Below, piece after piece: positions 789 to 12,729 of a stretch of DNA of 61,405 nt (position 1 is the first letter of the stretch; each line of letters opens with the position of its first letter). Made by a program: the position numbers and the translations under genes. This DNA is from Corallococcus sp. Lineage in GTDB: Bacteria > Bacillota > Clostridia > Christensenellales > CAG-314. The notes beneath the pieces were generated by a model. That model had not been told where the DNA came from and made no database searches. It worked only from the letters and a program-made list of their open reading frames with translations. The stretch spans positions 1 to 61,405 of the forward strand of contig JAMPHX010000002.1 in the NCBI GenBank assembly GCA_023663205.1, read 5' to 3'.

Positions 789-827
789 CGAAAAACAATT
801 AAAAGCAACGAGTTTTTCTCGTTGCTT
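789..827 (-). terminator. Rho-independent terminator abutting the tRNA-like 3' end at 832
   Basis: Stem AAGCAACGAG (803-812) / CTCGTTGCTT (818-827). On the minus strand the hairpin is followed by TTTAATTGTTTTT. It lies 4 nt past the ...CGCAACCA end of the tRNA-like copy. Confidence 0.55.
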
Positions 828-831
828 CGAT

Positions 832-1023
832 TGGTTGCGGGAATGGGATTTGTAAGGAGCAAAGCGACGGAATAGGGATTTTTGCAAAAAAAATCCCGTC
901 ACCTCATTGTCTGTCACAATTCCTGCGAAATTGCTTGGGACATCACTACGTTCCTTGCACGGGTTATACTTCGCTTCGCTCGGCTGAGGAGCCTGATGAA
1001 CTACCGGACTAGGGGTTCCCGCG
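832..1023 (-). pseudogene. Degenerate tRNA-fMet-like copy with internal insertions
   Basis: The minus strand reads CGCGGGA-ACCCCTAGTCCGGTAGTTCATCAGGCTC-[21-nt insert CTCAGCCGAGCGAAGCGAAGT]-ATAACCCG...[~110 nt]...ACAAATCCCATTCCCGCAACCA. The 5' and 3' ends align to the tRNA-fMet at 5820-5897. D and T stems do not pair. The acceptor stem keeps pairing through a G7>A / C66>T double change. Confidence 0.4.
970..994. repeat. 25-bp motif TTCGCTTCGCTCGGCTGAGGAGCCT, copy 1 (identical copy at 5942-5966)
   Basis: Exact 25/25 identity between 970-994 and 5942-5966. In both places the motif follows a tRNA-fMet 5'-half-like sequence on the minus strand. Confidence 0.8.
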
Positions 1024-1107: not shown

Positions 1108-1134
1108 AATGGTTGCGGGGATGGGATTTGAACC
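1108..1134. repeat. attL core (27-bp direct repeat AATGGTTGCGGGGATGGGATTTGAACC)
   Basis: Identical 27/27 to 5818-5844. It corresponds to the T-loop through CCA end of tRNA-fMet (reverse complement GGTTCAAATCCCATCCCCGCAACCA). Confidence 0.85.
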
Positions 1135-1409: not shown

Positions 1410-1853
1410 CTATCGTCGTTGACGTTCGTCATACCATATAGGCGCATTTTCTTTTAGTCGGAAATCCTCGTAATCCTCGATACGTCCATATGCAACATAC
1501 TTGTCTGTTATCTCGGCTACAATGTTAAATTCGGGCGGGCGGATTGTGTCCCAAGCCTCATCGTAAAACGTCAAAATGTAATTGACATCAAAATATGCAT
1601 TTCGATTGCGAGCACGGGCTATTGCGTAGTTTTCAACAGCCAATTCACACATTTTAGCGAGTGCGTCTTGCCGTATGTTTTTTATTAACAAATATATGCT
1701 TATTATCTCTGCGCGCATTTCTTCCGAGGTTTGCTTTTTGTAAAATTGCGGCGTTATTGTGCGACAAATTAAGTAAATTGTTTTCGCTATACGGCTTTTA
1801 TCTTGCTCGGAAGTTATGCTATTTAAAGTTATAGTTAAATCGTTCATAGCCAC
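1410..1853 (-). CDS. Hypothetical island protein (147 aa)
   Basis: Intact ORF, 2 nt downstream of the replisome-organizer gene on the same strand. No recognisable motif. Confidence 0.6.
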   Translation of the reverse strand: MAMNDLTITLNSITSEQDKSRIAKTIYLICRTITPQFYKKQTSEEMRAEIISIYLLIKNIRQDALAKMCELAVENYAIARARNRNAYFDVNYILTFYDEAWDTIRPPEFNIVAEITDKYVAYGRIEDYEDFRLKENAPIWYDERQRR

Positions 1854-1855
1854 TC

Positions 1856-2575
1856 CTAAATCTTTGCAAGTTCGTCAATCCAACTCTCTGGCGGCTCGGT
1901 CTTCGTTTTACCTTTGCCCTGCTCATATGTACCCCAGTAACGCAAAAGCGATTTCCAATTTTTGACGCCTTGCCAGTTTTCCTTTTCGTAGTAGTAAAAA
2001 AATCTTGCAGGGTCTACGGCACTGTTTATTTCTTTGCAATAGTTTTCTACTTCTTCAAATGTCGGCGGAATAAAAGTATTTTGTGTGTTTTGTTTTAGCG
2101 GATTTTCCGCTATAAAACTCTCTCCTTGGCTAATCTTAACTGGATTAAACTCATCTAAACTATACTGTGGCGACAAATTTGCATTTTTGGCTGACAAATC
2201 CGCGTTTTTGTCGGCAAGGTTGTTGCCAACAAGAAAACTATACGGCTTGCCCTTTTCAATTAAAAGCAATCTTTTTTCGTTTGTATACAGTGTGTCTTTT
2301 CTACGTGACGGGCGTATCTGATTGCTTACCAACCAATCACGCACTACAACGGGATTACCTTTTCCGAAAGACAGTAAAAAGCCGTTTGTTATAAGTTCGT
2401 CAAGGTGCTTTTGTTCGCAACGCGTATTGCGAACAATGCTCCTATAATTGTTTATAAAACCGTCATCGTCGGCGTGTTGGCACAAATGCAAATACAACAT
2501 CTGCGCAGAATGAGACAGTTCAAGAAAGTCGTCGGTCTCTGTCACGTCTACCGAAAACATTCTCCTATTTGCCAT
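1856..2575 (-). CDS. Phage replisome organizer / replication initiation protein
   Basis: The N-terminus MANRRMFSVDVTETDDFLELSHSAQMLYLHLCQHADDDGF matches the Phage_rep_org_N pattern. The C-terminus FEEVENYCKEINSAVDPARFFYYYEKENWQGVKNWKSLLRYW resembles the conserved phage C-terminal module. Confidence 0.75.
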   Translation of the reverse strand: MANRRMFSVDVTETDDFLELSHSAQMLYLHLCQHADDDGFINNYRSIVRNTRCEQKHLDELITNGFLLSFGKGNPVVVRDWLVSNQIRPSRRKDTLYTNEKRLLLIEKGKPYSFLVGNNLADKNADLSAKNANLSPQYSLDEFNPVKISQGESFIAENPLKQNTQNTFIPPTFEEVENYCKEINSAVDPARFFYYYEKENWQGVKNWKSLLRYWGTYEQGKGKTKTEPPESWIDELAKI

Positions 2576-2933
2576 TTTTGTTTACCTCTTTTTTTAATTT
2601 TTCGTAGTGAGATTTTAAAATATTTGCTTTGTTGCGCCAACTTATTATTTCTTCTTGCAATTTGTCCAATTCGTCTTCATCCGATACGTTACCGCCTAAC
2701 TTCTTGCGCAGACGCGCATTTTGTACTTGCAAGTTAAGTATTTTGCGTCGCAATTTGGCAATAGTTGTGTCGCGCTCGGCAAGTTTGCCCGTATAATCTC
2801 CGATATCGGCGGCAAGCCCGAACAGGCACATTGAATAATGCTTTACCAATTCCGTCGTTTGCTCGGTCACCGAAAGCGTTAAATCTTCTTTAATTTCGTT
2901 TACGTTTTTGTATTTGGGTTTAAAGTCTTCCAT
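2565..2933 (-). CDS. Hypothetical coiled-coil protein (122 aa)
   Basis: Intact ORF overlapping the downstream gene start by 11 nt. It has heptad-like charged sequence (KLRRKILNLQVQNARLRKKL). Confidence 0.6.
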   Translation of the reverse strand: MEDFKPKYKNVNEIKEDLTLSVTEQTTELVKHYSMCLFGLAADIGDYTGKLAERDTTIAKLRRKILNLQVQNARLRKKLGGNVSDEDELDKLQEEIISWRNKANILKSHYEKLKKEVNKNGK

Positions 2934-2986
2934 TTGTTTTGCTCCTTTATGTTAGTAGTTATCTGTGAATTTTTAATTGAACGGTT

Positions 2987-3027
2987 GCTCCGACGTCGAG
3001 CAAATTTCACTGTATACAGTGATTTTG
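2987..3027. repeat. IR-L: 41-bp inverted repeat, partner at 4373-4413
   Basis: GCTCCGACGTCGAGCAAATTTCACTGTATACAGTGATTTTG matches the reverse complement of 4373-4413 at 38/41 positions. It contains the palindromes CGACGTCG and TCACTGTATACAGTGA. It is intergenic. Confidence 0.9.
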
Positions 3028-3115
3028 ACGCAACGTCATCGATACCGTGCGCGTTGTTTTTCACTGAATGTTTAGCGGCGTAGTTCATAGACGCCGCAAA
3101 TGTCAATGTGCTTTT

Positions 3116-3448
3116 TCATTCTCCGCCACGTAGCAATTTGTTGAATGTTTCTTCGTACCGTGTAGCAAGTTCGGCAAATCCCTGCTCAAATACAAGTTCG
3201 CAGTCTACTTTGATTTCGTCAAGTATTCCGTGCATTGCATTAAGCAAAGTTGCCTGTACGTTGACATTACGTTCTTTGGCAAGTATCTGCAACAGATTGC
3301 GCAAATCGGATATGCGCAACAACGTAAAGTCACCCATAAAGTTTGATGTCACGTCGACGTCGCGGCGCAGTTGCTCCAACTGCGCGCGCATTTCGTTAAC
3401 TTTTAATTGTAATTCTGTCTGAGGGCTTGTTTTAGTCATTATCCGCAA
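3116..3448 (-). CDS. Hypothetical island protein (110 aa)
   Basis: Intact ORF in the cro-side operon. It overlaps the upstream ORF by 17 nt. Confidence 0.6.
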   Translation of the reverse strand: MRIMTKTSPQTELQLKVNEMRAQLEQLRRDVDVTSNFMGDFTLLRISDLRNLLQILAKERNVNVQATLLNAMHGILDEIKVDCELVFEQGFAELATRYEETFNKLLRGGE

Positions 3449-3632
3449 TCTCCATAACCATATACAAATCCTGTATCTCTCCTTTTACTGTTGGTATTTG
3501 ACTGTCGACGTAATCCGTTAAAGAGTCAAATCTCTTTTTAAATTCCTCATCTTCCATAAGACAGGGGCAAAAGGTTAAGTTTTCAAGATACCTATAAGCG
3601 TACCAGTATACCTCATTTGTTTTCACTTGCAT
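3432..3632 (-). CDS. Hypothetical island protein (66 aa)
   Basis: Intact ORF 2 nt downstream of the cro-like gene. This is the position where an excisionase or regulator is often found, but no HTH is evident. Confidence 0.5.
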   Translation of the reverse strand: MQVKTNEVYWYAYRYLENLTFCPCLMEDEEFKKRFDSLTDYVDSQIPTVKGEIQDLYMVMEIADND

Positions 3633-3634
3633 AG

Positions 3635-3847
3635 TTAATTACCTCCGAAAAATATATTGTTAAGTTCGTCAAAGTCAATGCCGAATATCCTTGACATTTT
3701 AGCCATAGTAAACGGCGTAGGCTTGTAGCGGTTCATTACCCAACCGTTGACGGTAGAAGGCGTTACGCCGATAGCCTCGGCGAACTCCTTTTGCCTATAA
3801 CCTAACTTGCGGATTAACTTAACTAATTGTGCATTGTGTTGTTTCAT
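3635..3847 (-). CDS. XRE-family HTH regulator (Cro-like)
   Basis: LIRKLGYRQKEFAEAIGVTPSTVNGWVMNRYKP is a classic HTH_3 motif. It is 70 aa and divergent from the cI-like gene. Confidence 0.8.
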   Translation of the reverse strand: MKQHNAQLVKLIRKLGYRQKEFAEAIGVTPSTVNGWVMNRYKPTPFTMAKMSRIFGIDFDELNNIFFGGN

Positions 3848-3980
3848 TTTCTTTTACTCCTTATTTTGTATTTAACGCCCCAATATGGGTCGTTTGATAG
3901 AATATACAATATATTTTGGGTCACGTCAACCCATTTTGGGGCAAATATGGTAAAATATATAAAAAAAAGGAGTAGAAACA
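3848..3980. promoter_or_regulatory. Divergent promoter/operator region of the cI-like / cro-like switch
   Basis: CCCA-N3-TGGG half-site palindromes lie at 3879-3889 (CCCAATATGGG) and 3930-3940 (CCCATTTTGGG). TGGGT...ACCCA lies at 3917-3933. A TAAAAT -10-like box sits at 3951-3956 and a GGAG RBS precedes the ATG at 3981. Confidence 0.55.
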
Positions 3981-4328
3981 ATGTTTAAAGTGCTTTTAAA
4001 AAATCTTCGAGAAGAAAAAAAACTAACACAAGAGAATGTTTGCGAAAAACTTAACGTATCAAGAAACTGCTACGCCTCTTATGAGCAAGGGCGCACCGAA
4101 CCAAACATAGAAATGCTTGTAAAGTTAGCCAACTTGTTTGAGTGTTCCGTCGATTATCTGCTCGGCAGGGTGTCCGACATCGATACAATTGAAATACAAA
4201 CAGATTTGACGGAACAGCAAAAAGAGTTGCTAAGCAACTTCGACAGACTCAACACAGAGGGCAAAGCGCGTCTGCTCGGCTACCTGCTTGCCCTGCTCGG
4301 TATGCCTGCGTATTCGCGCAAGCAGTGA
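3981..4328 (+). CDS. XRE-family HTH repressor (CI-like)
   Basis: LREEKKLTQENVCEKLNVSRNCYASYEQGRTEPNIEMLVKLANLFECSVDYLLGR is an HTH_3 domain, followed by a C-terminal oligomerisation-like tail. Confidence 0.8.
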   Translation: MFKVLLKNLREEKKLTQENVCEKLNVSRNCYASYEQGRTEPNIEMLVKLANLFECSVDYLLGRVSDIDTIEIQTDLTEQQKELLSNFDRLNTEGKARLLGYLLALLGMPAYSRKQ

Positions 4329-4372
4329 ATTATACAGGCATTGGGCGCGCCCATCGGAATGGCAGCACAAAG

Positions 4373-4413
4373 CAAAATCACTGTATAGAGTGAAATTTGC
4401 GCGACGTCGGCGC
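4373..4413. repeat. IR-R: 41-bp inverted repeat, partner at 2987-3027
   Basis: CAAAATCACTGTATAGAGTGAAATTTGCGCGACGTCGGCGC lies in the intergenic region between the cI-like gene and int. Confidence 0.9.
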
Positions 4414-4700
4414 CGGATGAGATAATATATTTCACAGAAAGATAACAACGGCAAAAGCCGTGTTTAATAAAATAGCCCGTTGTCGGGCGTTTCAAGATTT
4501 GTCGGACAGAACGGGCAAAGGAGACAATATGAATATAAAAAAATCTTGAAACACTTGCAGCAAGGCTGAAAGAAGATTGCATTGTTTTAAATGCAATACT
4601 CGGCGCAATGGATTGTTACGAAGATTGCGCCGCCGAATACTCCGAACCCTCGGACATGTCAAAACGAATGCCAGCAGTTTTGCCGAAGGAAGGAGAAGAA

Positions 4701-5723
4701 GTGAAAAGATACAAGGGCAAAACAATCCGCCGCCGCTCCGACGGGCGTTGGTGGGTAAGGTTCAGGCAGAACGGCAAACAAGTAAGCGTATACGGCAGAA
4801 CGCAAGCGGAATGTTTGGACAATCTGAAAGAGGCATTGAAACAGCAAAACAAAGGCAATAAGCCGACAAGCAATTTGACGCTCGGAGAATGGCTCGACAA
4901 ATGGCTTAAACTGTACAAGATAGGCAAAGTTAAGCCGTCGACACTCGAACAAATGCAACGCTATTTAAAAGTTGTTGAGCCGATAGCAAACATCAAATTG
5001 AAAAAGTTAACTGCAATAGACGTACAAGAGTTTTTGAACTCGATAGACAAGCCGCGGAAGCGTGAAAAACTGCACTTGTTTTTAAAAGACGCTTTAACAA
5101 AGGCAGTCAAAAACAAGTTAATTACAAGCAATCTGTTTGACGGCGTAACATTGCCCAAGAGAACAAAAAAGCAGTCAATCGCATTAACTCACGAAGAAGA
5201 ACGTCTATTTGTTGCCGAATGTCGGGAACGTCCGCAGGGTGACTTATTTTTATTCTGTTTGTATCAAGGGTTACGGCTCGGCGAAGCGTTGGCATTAACT
5301 TACAGCGACATAGATTTCAATAAAAAGACAATTACGGTAAATAAATCGCTTGACGGTTTCGGAAACGTCACAACGCCCAAAACTGCGACATCGACACGCA
5401 CTTTGCCATTGTTCAACCGTGCGGCTAAACTGCTTAGCAAGACGGGACAAGGAAATATATTTGTATTTCGGCGTAAGACGTATCAAAATACGATGTTGAA
5501 AATATGCGAAAAGTTAAATTTACAAAATGTCAGCGTGCATACTTTACGGCATACATTTGCCACACGTTGCGCCGAAGCAGGCGTTGCCGTGAAAGTCGTT
5601 CAAAAGTGGTTAGGACACTCAACGCTTGAAATGACATTAAATACGTATACTCACGTCAATGCAGATTTCGAGGCGAAAGAAGCAATAAAATTTGACACTC
5701 AATTTGACACTCACGAAGAATAA
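4701..5723 (+). CDS. int: Tyrosine-type phage integrase (ORF open from 4608; probable GTG start at 4701 after a GGAGAAG RBS)
   Basis: The N-terminal arm-binding-like sequence is KRYKGKTIRRRSDGRWWVRFRQNGKQV. The catalytic region is GLRLGEALAL ... HTLRHTFATRCAEAGVAVKVVQKWLGHSTLEMTLNTYTHV (R..HxxR..Y). The gene is adjacent to a tRNA. Confidence 0.9.
   Translation: MKRYKGKTIRRRSDGRWWVRFRQNGKQVSVYGRTQAECLDNLKEALKQQNKGNKPTSNLTLGEWLDKWLKLYKIGKVKPSTLEQMQRYLKVVEPIANIKLKKLTAIDVQEFLNSIDKPRKREKLHLFLKDALTKAVKNKLITSNLFDGVTLPKRTKKQSIALTHEEERLFVAECRERPQGDLFLFCLYQGLRLGEALALTYSDIDFNKKTITVNKSLDGFGNVTTPKTATSTRTLPLFNRAAKLLSKTGQGNIFVFRRKTYQNTMLKICEKLNLQNVSVHTLRHTFATRCAEAGVAVKVVQKWLGHSTLEMTLNTYTHVNADFEAKEAIKFDTQFDTHEE
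5691..5714 (+). promoter_or_regulatory. Putative integrase arm-type sites (2x TTTGACACTC), right arm, inside the int 3' end
   Basis: TTTGACACTCAATTTGACACTCAC is the same tandem motif as at 1217-1238. Confidence 0.4.
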
Positions 5724-5817: not shown

Positions 5818-5844
5818 AATGGTTGCGGGGATGGGATTTGAACC
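5818..5844. repeat. attR core (27-bp direct repeat)
   Basis: Identical to 1108-1134. It forms the 3' end of the tRNA-fMet gene. Confidence 0.85.
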
Positions 5845-5897
5845 TCATGACCTTCGGGTTATGAGCCCGATGAGCTACCAGACTGCTCTACCCCGCG
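5820..5897 (-). tRNA. Initiator tRNA-fMet (anticodon CAT)
   Basis: The minus strand reads CGCGGGGTAGAGCAGTCTGGTAGCTCATCGGGCTCATAACCCGAAGGTCATGAGGTTCAAATCCCATCCCCGCAACCA. It has the C1:A72 mismatch and three G:C pairs closing the anticodon stem, both initiator hallmarks. It is 78 nt, with one extra A in the 5' strand of the T stem. Confidence 0.85.
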
Positions 5898-5941: not shown

Positions 5942-5966
5942 TTCGCTTCGCTCGGCTGAGGAGCCT
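5942..5966. repeat. 25-bp motif TTCGCTTCGCTCGGCTGAGGAGCCT, copy 2
   Basis: Exact copy of 970-994. Confidence 0.8.
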
Positions 5967-5975
5967 CGATTCGCC

Positions 5976-6004
5976 ACCAGACTGCTCTACCCCGCGATAT
6001 AATA
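5976..6004 (-). repeat. Duplicate of the tRNA-fMet 5' end (first 21 nt) plus 8 nt of upstream TATTATAT box
   Basis: 29/29 identity between 5976-6004 and 5877-5905 (ACCAGACTGCTCTACCCCGCGATATAATA). Confidence 0.85.
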
Positions 6005-6240: not shown

Positions 6241-6798
6241 TTACATTATGTGCGACTTTGCCAACGCATTGCGCGTAAGATATATACAGCCGTTCATCAG
6301 CACATTGTACACGGGTACGGCAAGATTAACCGCAACGGGTATCAGCCAAAAGTATTTGTAGGCAAGAATATTTTCAAACACCACAGGCGTTACCAAATAC
6401 GTTGCGCCCGCCGTAATTGCAACGGCAACTTCGCACAAAACAAAAAACACAATCCACTTTGCCCAAACGGGAACTCTCGGCACCTCGTTGCCGTCCTTGA
6501 CCCTTTTGCTTTCTGCAAAGACCTTCCACATGGCAAACGGCATTGCGAACGTCACAATAGGGGCAACGTAAACAATATTGCCAAAGCCCAAAATTACGCC
6601 CAATATACTTGCCGCGATGTAGGTAAACACAGAATACAACCCGTATCGGGCGTCTATTACAAGCGGAACCGCTACTGCTACCGAAGCCACTACCGCAAGC
6701 ATAAGCGCAACCCACTTGACGTACGCCGCAAGCCACACGCACAAAACCGCAACCGCCGCGCATACGCCGGATAGGGCAATAAGTTTGGTTTTATTCAT
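6241..6798 (-). CDS. Integral membrane protein, ~5-6 TM (possibly ECF S-component/TrpP-like; unverified)
   Basis: 185 aa, almost entirely hydrophobic helices. It is the last gene of the trpS-led operon (3-nt gap to the upstream gene). Confidence 0.7.
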   Translation of the reverse strand: MNKTKLIALSGVCAAVAVLCVWLAAYVKWVALMLAVVASVAVAVPLVIDARYGLYSVFTYIAASILGVILGFGNIVYVAPIVTFAMPFAMWKVFAESKRVKDGNEVPRVPVWAKWIVFFVLCEVAVAITAGATYLVTPVVFENILAYKYFWLIPVAVNLAVPVYNVLMNGCIYLTRNALAKSHIM

Positions 6799-9374: not shown

Positions 9375-10745
9375 TGATTTTTCAACAATTTGATAAAATT
9401 TTCTTAATTATGCCTTGTGTTGGCGTTAATTTATCTTCTAAAATCGGAATACGGTACGTTCCGATGCCGACGTCGGATAGTATCTTGCGACGTTTCCGAG
9501 AAATTTTTTCTTGTGTTTTCCTATTTGTCCGAATTACCAAATTCAGAAAATTGCCGCCATTGTACATAAAACATCTCAATTGCGCGATGCGCTCTGCCCC
9601 GGCAATGCTCCACCCCATTGGACGACTTGACATACGTTTGGAAAGAACGTGCGAGACATGACCTTCCGCAGAACAAACAACTTCTTCGGAAAAATCGATC
9701 TCCGAGTAATTGTTGAACAGGTAAATCAAATTTTGTCGTATCGATGCGTCCGCGCCGTTGAATACCGCTTGCTGCATGATCGATTCCAATTCGTTCTCAG
9801 CCGAACAAGATTTCTCCTTTATAAGACTTCTCAGACGTATGTAATTTCTTTTATTCCCCGCGCTTGCAGCCGTTAGGCTTCGATACGCGTGGAATTTGTC
9901 TAAATGATATTTGGACGTTATCGAACCACTCCGTTCCCGCTTTAATCCAAGCAGCGCCGTCGCCGGACAGATGAACACACACTCGATTGCCGTATCGATT
10001 AAACACATATCGCGCCACTCTATCCCAAATGTCGTCTGCATCTGACAACGTCGAAAAATAACGCGCATTAATAAGCGCCGTTCGATTGCTCCCGGCATCA
10101 CGTCGCCCTTCATGAACATATACTAACTTTACTTCTGCATTTTTACCGTCGTTCAAATGAATATGATCCTCGTCCGCCTCGATATAAATCTGACGGTATT
10201 GCCTTTCGCAATTGTTGACAACTTCGCATTTTTCTTCGTCAATTTTATTTCGGTGCACTACGTTAAATGCGGTTTGACGCGAACAGCCGCTACGCCAAAA
10301 CTGCTCGATGCAGAATCGGATAAAATTTTCGCTTGCAAGCCGTTCTCTATGCGAGAATATCTGCGGATATTTAGCGCATCATCAACGGCAACAAAGTAAC
10401 AATCGTTTACTTTGTCGTAATACTGATTTCTGACAAGTTGAACGTTTCCCATTGACGTCAATAACCTTCTTGTCTGCTTGCTTTTTATCACAACGTTCGA
10501 AGGACGATTCCTTGAATAATCGTCCTCAATCAGTTTACACATTTGTTCGACAAAGTAACAACCGACACCGTTAACGCATTGTTGTGTCTGCTCCACTATA
10601 TCCTGTAAGTTCATTTTCTTTTGTGTTATCGAGTTCGCAATAAGCATTAACTCTTGTCGGGCCATTGCTAAAACAGCGTCCACAAGTTCCGTATTTTGCA
10701 TATTTTTTCTCCGTTTTTATCTAATTTTATCAAAATTCTGGCGAG
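9375..10745. mobile_element. IS remnant around the broken transposase (boundaries approximate)
   Basis: A candidate terminal inverted repeat is AATTTGATAAAATTT (about 9386-9400) versus AATTTTATCAAAATT (about 10723-10737). No target-site duplication was identified. Confidence 0.35.
9382..10701 (-). pseudogene. ISLre2/UPF0236-family transposase, split into three ORFs by frameshifts
   Basis: ORFs 10258-10701, 9851-10258 and 9382-10119 read consecutively as one transposase. Motifs are YIEADEDHIHL, SGDGAAWIK and HLDKFH. Two frame changes are needed to join them. Confidence 0.75.
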
Positions 10746-11883: not shown

Positions 11884-12729
11884 TTACTCGTCATTGTCGT
11901 CATCAGTCGGCGGAGTAATCTCCAATGCTTGTTTGTCAGTTGCGTTTAGCGGGGAAACAACTGACTGCCCCAATTGCTGTTCGATATCCGTGCGGGCATT
12001 TTTGGCAACGGTTCCGCCGCGCTTTGCAATTTGTTTGCTTTCCGTAAACGTTTCGGGCTGTTCTCTACGCGATATCGCCGTAGTAGTAACCTCGGCAAGC
12101 ATATTGAGGACGAGTTCGATATTCGTCATGTTGTCGCGTAAGTTTTCTTTGTGAAGTCCTTTTAACTGTTTGTATTCCGCTACAGTCATTCCGCTCCACG
12201 CTTTTGTCATCTCGTTTGTTAGTATAGCGTAATCTTTGTCGCGTTCGATTCCCCGCGATTTCCATTCGTCGGTAAGTTCCTTACGCATTTCGATTGTCTG
12301 CAAACGTTGATTTATCCAACCTTCGGTGTAGCCCTTTGCGCGATAGTAGTCCGCTCCGCGCAGTATCGCCTTTTCGGGGTCGGCAATCTCGTCCAAACGC
12401 TCGCTGCCTACTTGCGCTAACCACATTTTAAACGGTTCCGCCTTGGGGGACGGTATCGACTGCACAAGACGAAGAACGCCTGCGGTGTTGAGGCAGTCGG
12501 TCTTATAGTACTTACCGTCGGACGATTGTAATTTCAGTTGGTTACAATTTGTAACCAACTCACTACCCTCCTTTGCTAGACGGTTTTTTAATACCTTCCA
12601 ATAATTTCGCGGATTAGGACTGTCTGTTAATATGCCTACAACATCCACTACAGAAAAATACCAATCGTTTTCTTCGCCGTTCCATAAAGCGCGTATTTGC
12701 TTGTTCTCGAATACCTTTAACTTATCCAT
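11884..12729 (-). CDS. Bro-N domain protein, DinD-like
   Basis: The N-terminus VFENKQIRALWNGEENDWYFSVVDVVGILT...NYWKVLKNRL follows the Bro-N pattern. The length and the C-terminal KQLKGLHKENLRDNMTNIELVLNMLAE resemble E. coli DinD. Confidence 0.7.
   Translation of the reverse strand: MDKLKVFENKQIRALWNGEENDWYFSVVDVVGILTDSPNPRNYWKVLKNRLAKEGSELVTNCNQLKLQSSDGKYYKTDCLNTAGVLRLVQSIPSPKAEPFKMWLAQVGSERLDEIADPEKAILRGADYYRAKGYTEGWINQRLQTIEMRKELTDEWKSRGIERDKDYAILTNEMTKAWSGMTVAEYKQLKGLHKENLRDNMTNIELVLNMLAEVTTTAISRREQPETFTESKQIAKRGGTVAKNARTDIEQQLGQSVVSPLNATDKQALEITPPTDDDNDE

What the first reader, a model, noticed from the sequence alone, without database searches (positions are those of the whole stretch)
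2987..4413. 41-bp inverted repeats bracket the entire cI/cro switch module next to a tyrosine recombinase: candidate invertible or looped genetic switch
Seen in sequence: 2987-3027 and the reverse complement of 4373-4413 match at 38/41 positions. Both copies are intergenic. They enclose exactly the cI-like gene, its divergent promoter/operator region, the cro-like gene and two small ORFs (1,345 bp). Each copy carries two palindromes, an outer CGACGTCG and an inner 16-bp TCACTGTATACAGTGA, so each looks like a composite binding site for dimeric proteins.

Inference: in the present orientation the cro promoter reads into the replication genes and the cI promoter reads toward int. Inversion would swap these outputs. 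An alternative is a pair of remote operators for repressor-mediated looping, as in lambda OL/OR or TP901-1 OD. However, 41 bp of homology is longer than a simple operator. I saw no flanking target-site duplication, which argues against a nested transposon.
Basis: partly seen in the sequence, partly recalled or inferred. Interest (0 to 1): 0.66.

Follow-up and report, generated by a model that had tools for sequence, protein, structure and literature searches.

The report
Paired palindromic sites bracketing island switch
Two matching, internally palindromic ~106-116 bp DNA sites flank the repressor/cro control module of a tiny 4.7-kb island inserted in a tRNA-Met gene; they look like protein docking (operator-type) sites that gate the island's replication and integrase genes, not like the ends of a flip-flop DNA switch.

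Summary
2987-3027 and the reverse complement of 4373-4413 match at 38/41, against at most 29/41 in 30 shuffles. They bracket orf110, orf66, a cro-like gene and a cI-like gene inside a ~4.7-kb island bounded by 27-nt att repeats at tRNA-Met.

The 41-bp repeat is only the best-kept part of a larger design. Each site is itself a dyad centred on the 16-bp palindrome. A 53-nt unit (TA[C/G]AGTGA, ACGTC, TTCAC[A/T]GA) occurs three times in exact register. A fourth half has its distal TTCACTG shifted by 11 bp. Two of the three arm mismatches are symmetric partners.

The cI-type operators are a different motif (CCCA-N3-TGGG). That motif is also present in the one related island I could fetch, which lacks the bracket sites.

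The only recombinase detected in 61 kb is the island integrase. Its att core and candidate arm sites are unrelated to the repeat.

I read the sites as operator-type protein-binding arrays that gate or bridge the outward genes (replication genes, int). The binder is unknown; the basic Cro-like protein is the best island-encoded candidate. Inversion has no support but is not excluded. No reads or close relatives could be obtained.

The parts
2962..3067 (.). Left bracket site: ~106-bp dyad centred at 3014/3015. It is two 53-nt units head to head (outer unit 2962-3014 on the minus strand, inner unit 3015-3067 on the plus strand).
   Evidence: As single-stranded DNA the whole dyad folds back on itself (z -2.3).
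4323..4438 (.). Right bracket site, centred at 4385/4386. The outer unit 4386-4438 (+) is canonical. The inner half keeps TACAGTGA, lacks the ACGTC block, and has its TTCACTG (4323-4329, minus strand, overlapping the cI stop codon) 11 bp further out.
2987..3027 (.). Left arm of the 41-bp inverted repeat. It holds the GC-rich palindrome GCTCCGACGTCGAGC (2987-3001) and the 16-bp palindrome (3007-3022).
4373..4413 (.). Right arm of the 41-bp inverted repeat. It holds the 16-bp palindrome with one mismatch (4378-4393) and GCGCGACGTCGGCGC (4399-4413).
3879..3940 (.). Central divergent control region with two CCCA-N3-TGGG dyads (3879-3889, 3930-3940). These are the inferred operators of the cI-like repressor. 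A promoter-like site faces the cro side (TTGACG-17-TATATT, 3929-3901, minus strand).
   Evidence: The same motif occurs three times in L034 at 6312-6380. The DNA is 80% identical between 3925-3970 and L034 6362-6406.
3981..4328 (+). cI-like / ImmR-like HTH_3 repressor, 115 aa.
   Evidence: Pfam HTH_3 1.5e-15. Best PDB match is the ICEBs1 Xre-family regulator 7t8i. RstR-family 66 bits, below its 80-bit cut-off.
3635..3847 (-). Cro-like HTH_3 protein, 70 aa, pI 10. It is the best island-encoded candidate binder of the bracket sites (inference).
3432..3632 (-). orf66: acidic, no family match.
3116..3448 (-). orf110: helical, acidic, no significant family match.
2565..2933 (-). 122-aa basic coiled-coil protein. 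It is the first gene outside the left site; its ATG is 29 nt beyond the outer TTCACAGA block.
1856..2575 (-). DnaD-like helicase loader / replisome-organiser type replication protein, 239 aa. It contains a 21-bp x2.1 tandem repeat at 2168-2210.
   Evidence: phrog_8489 4.6e-39; HTH_36; tandem repeat.
1410..1853 (-). orf147: unknown function, last gene of the leftward operon.
4608..5723 (+). Tyrosine integrase. The true start is uncertain: the public gene call is 340 aa (start 4701), and homology to L034 begins about 4657.
   Evidence: PF00589 3.3e-25 and PF14659. Scores below all NCBIfam cut-offs, including the Fim-type invertase models (31-32 bits against 221-222).
1108..1134 (.). attL: a 27-nt copy of the tRNA-Met 3' end.
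   Evidence: repeat family D1 (100% identical to 5818-5844).
5818..5844 (.). attR, inside tRNA-Met (5820-5897, minus strand).

Best explanation
**What it is.** The two repeats are a pair of operator-type nucleoprotein sites at the two borders of the immunity (cI/cro) module of a minimal, satellite-like integrative island. Each site has a central 16-bp dyad for a dimer. It also has a GACGTC-containing block about two helical turns out and a TTCAC[A/T]G half-site about 4.6 turns out on each side. An oligomeric DNA-binding protein would occupy roughly 106-116 bp at each site.

**What it most likely does.** One site sits between the cro-side operon and the replication genes. The other sits between cI and int. 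I therefore think they gate transcription leaving the module in both directions, so that replication and integrase expression are controlled together. The gating could work through a weak regulated promoter, a roadblock, or both. The two sites may also be bridged into a 1.37-kb loop.

**Who binds.** The cI-like repressor is not the binder, because its operators are a different motif. The basic 70-aa Cro-like HTH protein is the best island-encoded candidate. A helper-phage or host regulator is equally possible.

**Shown:** the anatomy, its statistics, the distinct cI operator motif, and the gene layout.

**Inferred:** protein binding, the identity of the binder, and gating or looping.
For: - **The repeat is far beyond chance.** 38/41 matches against at most 29/41 in shuffles. 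The palindrome occurs only twice in 61 kb.
- **Three 53-nt units in exact register.** The blocks are TA[C/G]AGTGA at positions 1-8, ACGTC at 19-23 and TTCAC[A/T]GA at 46-53. The units lie at 2962-3014(-), 3015-3067(+) and 4386-4438(+) (0 expected; the pattern was derived from these same sequences).
- **Independent count of the half-site.** TTCACWG occurs 10 times in the whole window, and 5 of these fall in the two ~110-bp zones.
- **The fourth half keeps helical phase.** Its distal half-site is displaced by exactly 11 bp. This fits contacts on one face of the DNA.
- **The inner left unit argues for DNA-level recognition.** It faces into orf110 on the antisense side, so it cannot serve as a promoter or mRNA leader for a gene, yet it keeps all three blocks.
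- **Compensatory change.** Two of the three arm differences (outward positions 29 and 39: T..A on the left, G..C on the right) are partners in the palindrome GC[T/G]C-N7-G[A/C]GC. By my estimate the chance of this is about 2-3%.
- **The cI operators are a different motif.** CCCA-N3-TGGG occurs only at 3879-3889 and 3930-3940 in the window. It occurs three times in the divergent region of L034. The L034 cI is 50% identical, with a nearly identical recognition helix.
- **L034 differs on the cro side and lacks the sites.** L034 has an unrelated cro-side operon and no bracket sites.
- **Position fits gating.** The outer TTCACAGA block ends 29 nt before the ATG of the first gene outside the left site. 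On the right, TTGCGC-18-GATAAT (8/12) would start transcription at the same block (read).
- **Published parallel.** In TP901-1 a central CI dyad is flanked by sites for the small Cro-like MOR protein, and CI also binds a remote operator OD (PMC7250872).
- **Same palindrome used elsewhere.** In one IMG/VR prophage the same 16-mer and a second similar copy sit in the promoter region of an XRE-type gene beside an integrase (L195). This is analogy only.
Against: - No binding data exist, and no relatives carry the sites, so there is no conservation or co-variation test.
- The consensus promoter scan found no sigma-70-type promoter in either arm at its 9/12 threshold. The left outer unit has only a poor -10.
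- The right site is followed by two hairpins (4448-4488) before int.
- The related island L034 works without such sites, so they are not essential to this type of element.
- The register pattern was written from the three units themselves.
- Dyad symmetry and the compensatory pair would also fit hairpins in RNA or single-stranded DNA.
Confidence: 0.5

Rival explanations
1. Invertible (or excisable) switch cassette. A site-specific recombinase recombines the two sites and flips the whole cI/cro module, swapping which promoter reads into int and which into the replication genes.
For: - A highly significant inverted repeat brackets a discrete functional module.
- The central AAAATCACT-GTATAC-AGTGAAATT layout superficially resembles a recombinase core site, with two binding arms around a short spacer (read).
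- A tyrosine recombinase gene lies 200-300 bp away.
- Recombinases acting in trans from elsewhere in a genome are known, for example C. difficile RecV (PMC5386303, listed; otherwise my own knowledge).
Against: - The neighbouring recombinase is the island integrase. It has clear 27-nt att repeats at tRNA-Met and its own candidate arm-type repeats TTTGACAC. Neither resembles the bracket sites.
- It scores 31-32 bits against cut-offs of 221-222 for the tyrosine invertase families.
- No other tyrosine recombinase and no Hin-like serine recombinase ORF was detected in the 61-kb window.
- The sites are palindromic, so they carry little polarity. The left and right central bases differ (GTATAC against GTATAG), which tyrosine recombinases tolerate poorly (my knowledge).
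- The distal phased half-sites and the full dyad on the left are not needed for an inversion site.
- The inverted state would put replication genes under the lysogenic promoter.
- The related island lacks the repeats.
Confidence: 0.07
2. Replication-origin-type sites. The dyads are binding and assembly sites for the island's DnaD-like / replisome-organiser protein, with the AT-rich stretch of the outer units as the unwinding element. This would be comparable to the two G38P-bound regions oriL and oriR of phage SPP1 (my knowledge).
For: - The left site lies just upstream of the replication operon.
- The outer units contain AT-rich 17-nt spacers.
- Dyad-symmetric multi-block sites suit symmetric loading complexes.
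- The Rep protein has an N-terminal HTH.
Against: - A more conventional origin candidate exists inside the rep gene: a 21-bp x2.1 tandem repeat at 2168-2210.
- The two sites are 1.37 kb apart on either side of the regulatory module, which is unusual for an origin.
- Loci with Rep relatives (30-43% identity: L013, L059, L067, L121, L168, L169, L187) show no TTCACWG clusters.
Confidence: 0.1
3. RNA-level elements. In the outward transcripts the arms fold into hairpins that act as processing, stability or antitermination signals at both exits of the module. This would be analogous in placement to lambda nutL/nutR or HK022 putL/putR (my knowledge).
For: - Both arms lie downstream of the two divergent promoters, in the same orientation relative to transcription.
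- The extended hairpin GCAAAAUCACUG-UAUA-CAGUGAAAUUUGC forms in both. The left 66-nt region folds better than shuffles (z -3.3).
- The compensatory T-A / G-C pair preserves a stem.
Against: - The right arm does not fold significantly (z -0.8).
- The predicted structures differ between the two sides beyond the first hairpin.
- There is no U-tract, so the arms are not terminators.
- No terminator follows the left site before the next gene, so an antitermination role would not be symmetric.
- The conserved distal TTCACWG blocks, the inner left unit and the 11-bp shift are not explained by hairpins.
- No Rfam family matched.
Confidence: 0.1
4. Evolutionary leftover. An inverted duplication arose by template switching or a past rearrangement at a palindrome, and it has no present function.
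For: - The sites are absent from the one related island.
- No promoter was found at the scan threshold.
- Similarity falls off sharply outside the 41 bp.
Against: - There is a sharp contrast between the 93% identical core and the diverged spacers.
- Short blocks are nevertheless kept in exact register in three units, and shifted by one helical turn in the fourth.
- The paired compensatory change also points to selection.
Confidence: 0.08

Closest known systems
Phage lambda immunity region: OL/PL and OR/PR (and nutL/nutR) flanking cI-rex, with CI-mediated OL-OR looping
   Same: Homologous control sequences in opposite orientation sit on either side of the repressor gene. They face outward toward int on one side and the replication genes on the other. 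Paired sites about 1-2 kb apart could be bridged by an oligomer. (This is established knowledge, not tested here.)
   Different: - In lambda the flanking operators are the repressor's own operators, and OR is itself the divergent switch.
- Here a separate central cI/cro operator region with a different motif (CCCA-N3-TGGG) lies inside the bracket.
- Here cro also lies inside the bracket.
- Clear outward promoters are not evident.
Lactococcal phage TP901-1 switch: CI operators OR, OL, OD and the composite OM1-OM2-OR-OM3 operator bound by CI and MOR
   Same: A central dyad is flanked by extra sites for a second small HTH protein encoded divergently from cI. A remote operator takes part in repression by an oligomeric repressor (PMC7250872).
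   Different: - The TP901-1 sites lie within a region of less than 1 kb at the divergent promoters, and CI binds them.
- Here the composite sites are at the outer borders of the module, about 48 bp arm to arm, and they do not carry the cI motif.
- There is no sequence relationship: the best PDB match of the cI-like protein is ICEBs1 ImmR, not TP901-1 CI.
ICEBs1-type immR-int arrangement and Gram-positive PICI/SaPI-type satellites
   Same: - Integrase downstream of an XRE-type repressor on the same strand.
- A divergent operon leading to replication genes.
- tRNA/att-bounded small island.
- The closest annotated integrases, at about 31% identity, include Streptococcus satellite phages.
   Different: - Only 4.7 kb.
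- No ImmA-type protease.
- No recognisable excisionase, primase/helicase or packaging-redirection gene.
- Bracket sites of this kind are not a described feature of those elements, to my knowledge.
Invertons (fim switch, Bacteroides and C. difficile invertible promoters)
   Same: An inverted repeat of tens of bp flanks a regulatory segment, with a tyrosine recombinase gene nearby.
   Different: - The segment here is 1.35 kb with four genes.
- The recombinase is an att-specific integrase that scores below the invertase family cut-offs.
- The sites are large dyads with phased auxiliary half-sites.
- No orientation variants are known.

Membership tests
Invertible DNA switch (inverton) | Inverted repeats flanking the segment | tested here: met
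   38/41 inverted repeat with 1345 nt between the arms; far above shuffles.
Invertible DNA switch (inverton) | An invertase-type site-specific recombinase able to act on the repeats | tested here: not met
   The only recombinase detected in 61 kb (phmmer with two queries) is the island integrase. It scores 31-32 bits against cut-offs of 221-222 for the tyrosine invertase models. It has its own att repeats and candidate arm sites unrelated to the repeat. A recombinase acting in trans from outside the window cannot be excluded.
Invertible DNA switch (inverton) | Identical, polar crossover core in both repeats | tested here: inconclusive
   The central bases are palindromic on the left (GTATAC) and differ by one base on the right (GTATAG). 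The true crossover positions are unknown.
Invertible DNA switch (inverton) | Both orientations observed in reads or among homologues | not testable with these tools
   No reads were available. The only related island (L034) lacks the repeats.
Remote operators of the maintenance repressor (lambda OL/OR, TP901-1 OD type) | Remote sites carry the same operator motif as the switch operators | tested here: not met
   Central operators are CCCA-N3-TGGG, present only at 3879-3889 and 3930-3940. The same motif is conserved in L034 together with a conserved cI recognition helix. The bracket sites carry TCACTGTATACAGTGA / TTCACWG instead.
Remote operators of the maintenance repressor (lambda OL/OR, TP901-1 OD type) | Dyad-symmetric sites suited to dimers, with phased auxiliary sites | tested here: met
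   Symmetric compensatory substitution pair.
Remote operators of the maintenance repressor (lambda OL/OR, TP901-1 OD type) | Sites overlap outward promoters | tested here: inconclusive
   No promoter at the scan threshold. By eye the right site has TTGCGC-18-GATAAT (8/12); the left has only a poor -10.
Remote operators of the maintenance repressor (lambda OL/OR, TP901-1 OD type) | Protein-mediated looping between the sites | not testable with these tools
   Needs 3C, tethered-particle motion or reporter assays.
PICI-type phage satellite | Site-specific integration with an integrase and att repeats | tested here: met
   27-nt direct repeats at 1108-1134 and 5818-5844 at the tRNA-Met 3' end; tyrosine integrase.
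PICI-type phage satellite | Divergent repressor / cro-type control module and a replication module | tested here: met
   Two HTH_3 genes arranged divergently; DnaD-like helicase loader.
PICI-type phage satellite | Genes for hijacking helper packaging (terS, capsid-size redirection, etc.) | tested here: not met
   No such family was found in any of the eight ORFs with Pfam, PHROGs or NCBIfam, or in the seven non-integrase ORFs with PADLOC. Four ORFs remain unassigned.
PICI-type phage satellite | Induction and transfer by a helper phage | not testable with these tools
   No prophage was recognised in the part of the window that was annotated (9.4-42.7 kb). This needs experiment.

The most novel reading that the evidence does not exclude
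The two palindromic sites are recombination sites for a recombinase acting in trans (or for Int in an unorthodox mode). The entire cI/cro bistable switch of the island would then be flipped, or looped out, as a cassette. This would be a phase-variable immunity module that re-wires which promoter drives int and which drives replication.
Probability: 0.06. Interest if true: 0.8.

Novelty: new variant of a known kind. Interest (0 to 1): 0.35.

Why it matters
If the sites are real protein-docking arrays, this 4.7-kb island shows a compact regulatory layout. A classical cI/cro switch sits inside a second, symmetric layer of control that gates both exits of the module (integrase on one side, replication on the other) through one shared recognition sequence.

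That would give a simple way for a minimal satellite-like element to fire excision and replication together. If the binder comes from a helper phage or the host, it would also let the island listen to an outside signal.

It is a tidy, testable case for how small integrative elements in uncultured gut-type Firmicutes are controlled. It is not, on present evidence, a new kind of mechanism. It also warns that inverted repeats made of palindromes should not be read as inversion sites without further evidence.

Tried and rejected
**Getting relatives**
- The search for related loci with int in genome contigs gave 24 loci. The best was a truncated int fragment; the rest were below 36% identity.
- The search for related loci in viral contigs gave nothing close.
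- The int alignment in metagenome contigs was saturated by generic integrase patterns. Only L034 (56% int identity) was useful.
The window's own int is not on record.

**DNA pattern scans of viral contigs**
- The 16-mer gave 12 single hits and its variant gave 4. The 12 hits are about what I estimate by chance from an assumed IMG/VR size of ~5e10 bp.
- The three-block unit gave no hit.

**Other DNA and literature searches**
- blastn of the island against GenBank phages gave no match.
- tblastn of int against phages and plasmids gave at most 33% identity.
- A full-text search for the palindrome found 0 papers.
- A concatenated query of the spurious ORFs that read through the arms, meant to find relatives or chimeric junctions in the protein database, gave no hit at E<=10.

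**Ideas considered and rejected**
- Rfam: only the tRNA matched.
- Intrinsic terminator: no U-tract.
- Nested transposon: no transposase and no target duplication.
- Int arm-type or core-type sites: different motifs.
- Genome-wide repeat such as REP or MITE: only two copies in 61 kb.
- By eye and from memory I also compared the palindrome with LexA, CRP/FNR, Rex, CIRCE, parS and dif consensus sites. None fits in half-site orientation or spacing. These were not tool tests.
- A survey of 285 fetched loci for comparable inverted repeats found only a handful. One of them (L030) also brackets a cI/cro pair next to int, but it is only marginally above chance.
Full report
**1.

The window contains a 41-nt inverted repeat: 2987-3027 against 4373-4413, 38 of 41 positions complementary, 1345 nt between the arms. 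It is the longest inverted repeat in the first 9 kb. In 30 shuffles of the island the best 41-nt inverted window reached 24-29 matches, against 38 observed.

The 16-bp palindrome TCACTGTATACAGTGA is perfect at 3007-3022. It has one mismatch at 4378-4393. These are the only two matches in 61 kb even with three mismatches allowed (0.09 expected). CGACGTCG is in both arms, with a third copy at 3355-3362. It occurs 7 times in the window against 1.3 expected.

**2. Setting**

The repeat lies in a ~4.7-kb island. The island is bounded by exact 27-nt direct repeats (1108-1134 and 5818-5844). These repeats are the 3' end of a tRNA-Met gene (5820-5897, minus strand).

Gene order, left to right:

| Coordinates | Strand | Feature |
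|---|---|---|
| 1410-1853 | - | orf147 |
| 1856-2575 | - | DnaD-like helicase loader / replisome-organiser type protein (phrog_8489, 4.6e-39) |
| 2565-2933 | - | basic 122-aa coiled-coil protein |
| 2962-3067 | . | left bracket site |
| 3116-3448 | - | orf110 |
| 3432-3632 | - | orf66 |
| 3635-3847 | - | 70-aa HTH_3 Cro-like protein (pI 10) |
| ~3848-3980 | . | divergent control region |
| 3981-4328 | + | 115-aa HTH_3 cI/ImmR-like repressor |
| 4323-4438 | . | right bracket site |
| 4608/4701-5723 | + | tyrosine integrase |

No packaging, excisionase or defence family was detected.

The part of the window I annotated (9.4-42.7 kb) is ordinary chromosome: ABC transporters, GH28/GH88 glycosidases and the like. 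No second tyrosine recombinase and no Hin-like serine recombinase ORF was found anywhere in the 61 kb (phmmer; sensitivity is limited).

**3. The repeat is part of a larger, dyad-symmetric design**

I aligned ±70 nt around the two palindrome centres (3014/3015 and 4385/4386). Each site is itself palindromic, and three half-sites share a 53-nt unit in exact register.

| Block | Sequence | Positions from the centre |
|---|---|---|
| A | TA[C/G]AGTGA | 1-8 |
| B | ACGTC | 19-23 |
| C | TTCAC[A/T]GA | 46-53 |

- The three units are left-outer 2962-3014(-), left-inner 3015-3067(+) and right-outer 4386-4438(+).
- The pattern was written from these sequences, so the 0 chance expectation is partly circular.
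- An independent count is not circular. The heptamer TTCACWG occurs only 10 times in the whole window on both strands, which is the chance level overall. Five of the ten lie inside these two ~110-bp zones.
- The fourth half (right-inner) keeps block A, lacks block B, and carries TTCACTG 11 bp further out. That copy is at 4323-4329 on the minus strand and overlaps the cI stop codon. The shift is one helical turn.
- Two of the three differences between the arms fall on partner positions of the GC-rich palindrome: GC-T-C...G-A-GC on the left and GC-G-C...G-C-GC on the right. Symmetry is therefore preserved. I estimate the chance of this at about 2-3%.
- Because the sites are palindromes, the two sites also align in direct orientation (D2). 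"Inverted" describes only the better-conserved outer halves.

**4. What this anatomy implies**

Blocks kept in register across spacers that have otherwise diverged point to recognition of double-stranded DNA by an oligomeric protein. So does a one-turn shift, and so does a conserved inner unit that faces antisense into a coding region.

These features are not what a terminator would show: there is no U-tract. They are not what a simple mRNA leader would show either. No Rfam family matched.

RNA folding is significant only for the left site (z -3.3) and not for the right (z -0.8). The predicted structures also differ between the two sides.

**5. Who binds**

The cI-like repressor has its own operators. 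CCCA-N3-TGGG occurs exactly twice in the window, and both copies are in the divergent region (3879-3889 and 3930-3940).

The only related island I could retrieve is L034, a metagenome contig with 56% int identity and 50% cI identity, integrated at a tRNA-Pro.
- It has three dyads of the CCCA-N3-TGGG type in its divergent region; two match the motif exactly and one has CGGG for TGGG.
- Its cI recognition helix is almost identical (VS[R/K]NCYASYEQG).
- Its DNA is 80% identical to the window across the operator region.
- Its cro-side operon is unrelated.
- It has no bracket sites.

So the bracket palindrome is not the cI operator. It travels with the cro-side gene set, or it was acquired separately.

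The only other DNA-binding proteins of the island are the basic Cro-like protein, the Rep protein's N-terminal HTH, and Int. Int has its own candidate arm-type repeats. AATTTGACACTC occurs twice in tandem at 5689-5713. TGACACTCGTTTTGACACTCAC lies at 1217-1238. An inverted copy lies at 4657-4687. Int also has an att core unrelated to the palindrome. A binder from outside the island (helper phage or host) cannot be excluded.

**6. Function**

The left site lies between the end of the cro-orf66-orf110 block and the replication genes. Its outer block C ends 29 nt before the ATG at 2933. The right site lies between cI and int.

The consensus scan finds no promoter in the arms. By eye the right outer unit has TTGCGC-18-GATAAT (8/12), which would place the transcription start at block C. 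The left has only a poor -10.

I therefore commit to a gate model. One shared recognition sequence controls what leaves the module in both directions. The mechanism could be activator-dependent weak promoters, a roadblock on read-through from the central promoters, or both. The two sites may also be bridged into a 1.37-kb loop.

This is the layout of lambda OL/OR in spirit (my knowledge). In composite-operator logic it resembles TP901-1 (PMC7250872). It differs from both because a separate central switch lies inside the bracket and the maintenance repressor is not the likely binder.

**7. Inversion**

Nothing supports inversion beyond the existence of the repeat.
- The adjacent recombinase is an att-specific integrase. 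It scores 31-32 bits against cut-offs of 221-222 for the invertase families.
- The central bases are palindromic on the left and differ by one base on the right.
- The inverted state would place replication genes under the lysogenic promoter.
- L034 lacks the repeats.

Still, trans-acting recombinases exist, and I could not examine reads or site-bearing relatives. I leave inversion at about 6-7%.

**8. Limits**

The viral collection holds no member of this integrase family and no copy of the unit.

The window's proteins are singletons at 90% identity in the protein collection. Relatives at 60-76% identity do exist there, for example P0122 on 67 contigs, but their DNA could not be fetched. That is the obvious next step.

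**9. Verdict**

This is a real, non-random and rather elegant pair of dyad-symmetric sites. It is most likely a second regulatory layer around the cI/cro switch of a minimal satellite-like island.

It is a new variant of a known kind (remote or composite operators flanking an immunity region), not a demonstrated invertible switch. Interest is moderate to low until binding or orientation data exist.

Noticed in passing
window 5689-5713, 1217-1238, 4657-4687 (with 1203-1233): These are candidate integrase arm-type sites. AATTTGACACTC occurs twice in tandem inside the 3' end of int, where it encodes the family-conserved FDTxFDT C-terminus. A similar double copy lies near attL. A 31-nt, 90% inverted copy of the attL-side sequence lies at the 5' end of int, which could allow autoregulation.
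   Followed up: partly
window 4430-4615: The int leader is strongly structured as RNA (z -3.5). It has two hairpins (4448-4461, 4475-4488) that read as terminators mainly on the minus strand. A long stem (4490-4500 / 4541-4551) encloses a 6-codon mini-ORF with a good ribosome-binding site (4529-4549, MNIKKS). Another hairpin lies just before the ATG at 4608. This could be an attenuator or translational control of int.
   Followed up: partly
window 2168-2210: A 21-bp tandem repeat (2.1 copies, TGGCGACAAATCCGCATTTT) lies inside the DnaD-like / replisome-organiser gene, in the linker between its domains. It is a candidate for internal origin iterons, as in replisome-organiser phages.
   Followed up: no
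window 801-856, 970-994, 5942-6004: There are traces of earlier integration or rearrangement at the same tRNA locus. A degenerate copy of the tRNA 3' end / att lies at 830-856 (81%), with a similar upstream hairpin. An exact 25-nt repeat links 970-994 and 5942-5966. A second copy of the tRNA-Met 5' part lies at 5967-6004 (92%) and is not called as a tRNA.
   Followed up: partly
window 2991, 3355, 4402, 9468, 40823, 41767, 43232: CGACGTCG occurs 7 times against 1.3 expected. Three of the copies lie within 1.4 kb in and around the switch module. The enrichment is unexplained.
   Followed up: no
window 3483-3506: Two direct copies of TTT[T/G]ACTGT lie 14 nt apart inside orf66. Each is one mismatch from the bracket half-site TTTCACTGT. 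They could be weak extra sites or chance.
   Followed up: no
alignment A2 (cI-like family): The cI-like family is mosaic. The C-terminal ~50 residues are nearly identical across members, while the HTH region falls into at least two recognition-helix types. This suggests immunity-specificity swapping by recombination inside the gene.
   Followed up: no
L030 5430-5458 and 6884-6912: In an unrelated AT-rich IMG/VR element, a 29-nt inverted repeat (26/29) also brackets a cro-like/cI-like pair plus one gene immediately upstream of int. It is only slightly above shuffles (22-25), so it may be chance.
   Followed up: partly
L195 5155-5201: An IMG/VR prophage carries the identical 16-mer TCACTGTATACAGTGA and a second similar copy (TCACTGTTCAGAGTGA) 31 nt downstream. 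Both sit in the promoter region of an XRE-type gene next to an integrase. This shows the palindrome type used as an operator elsewhere. The HTH proteins there are unrelated to the island's.
   Followed up: partly
window 11884-12729 (-) and 9382-10119 (-): A Bro-N domain protein (phage antirepressor-type N-terminal domain) and a UPF0236 fragment lie a few kb from the island. They may be remnants of other mobile elements.
   Followed up: no
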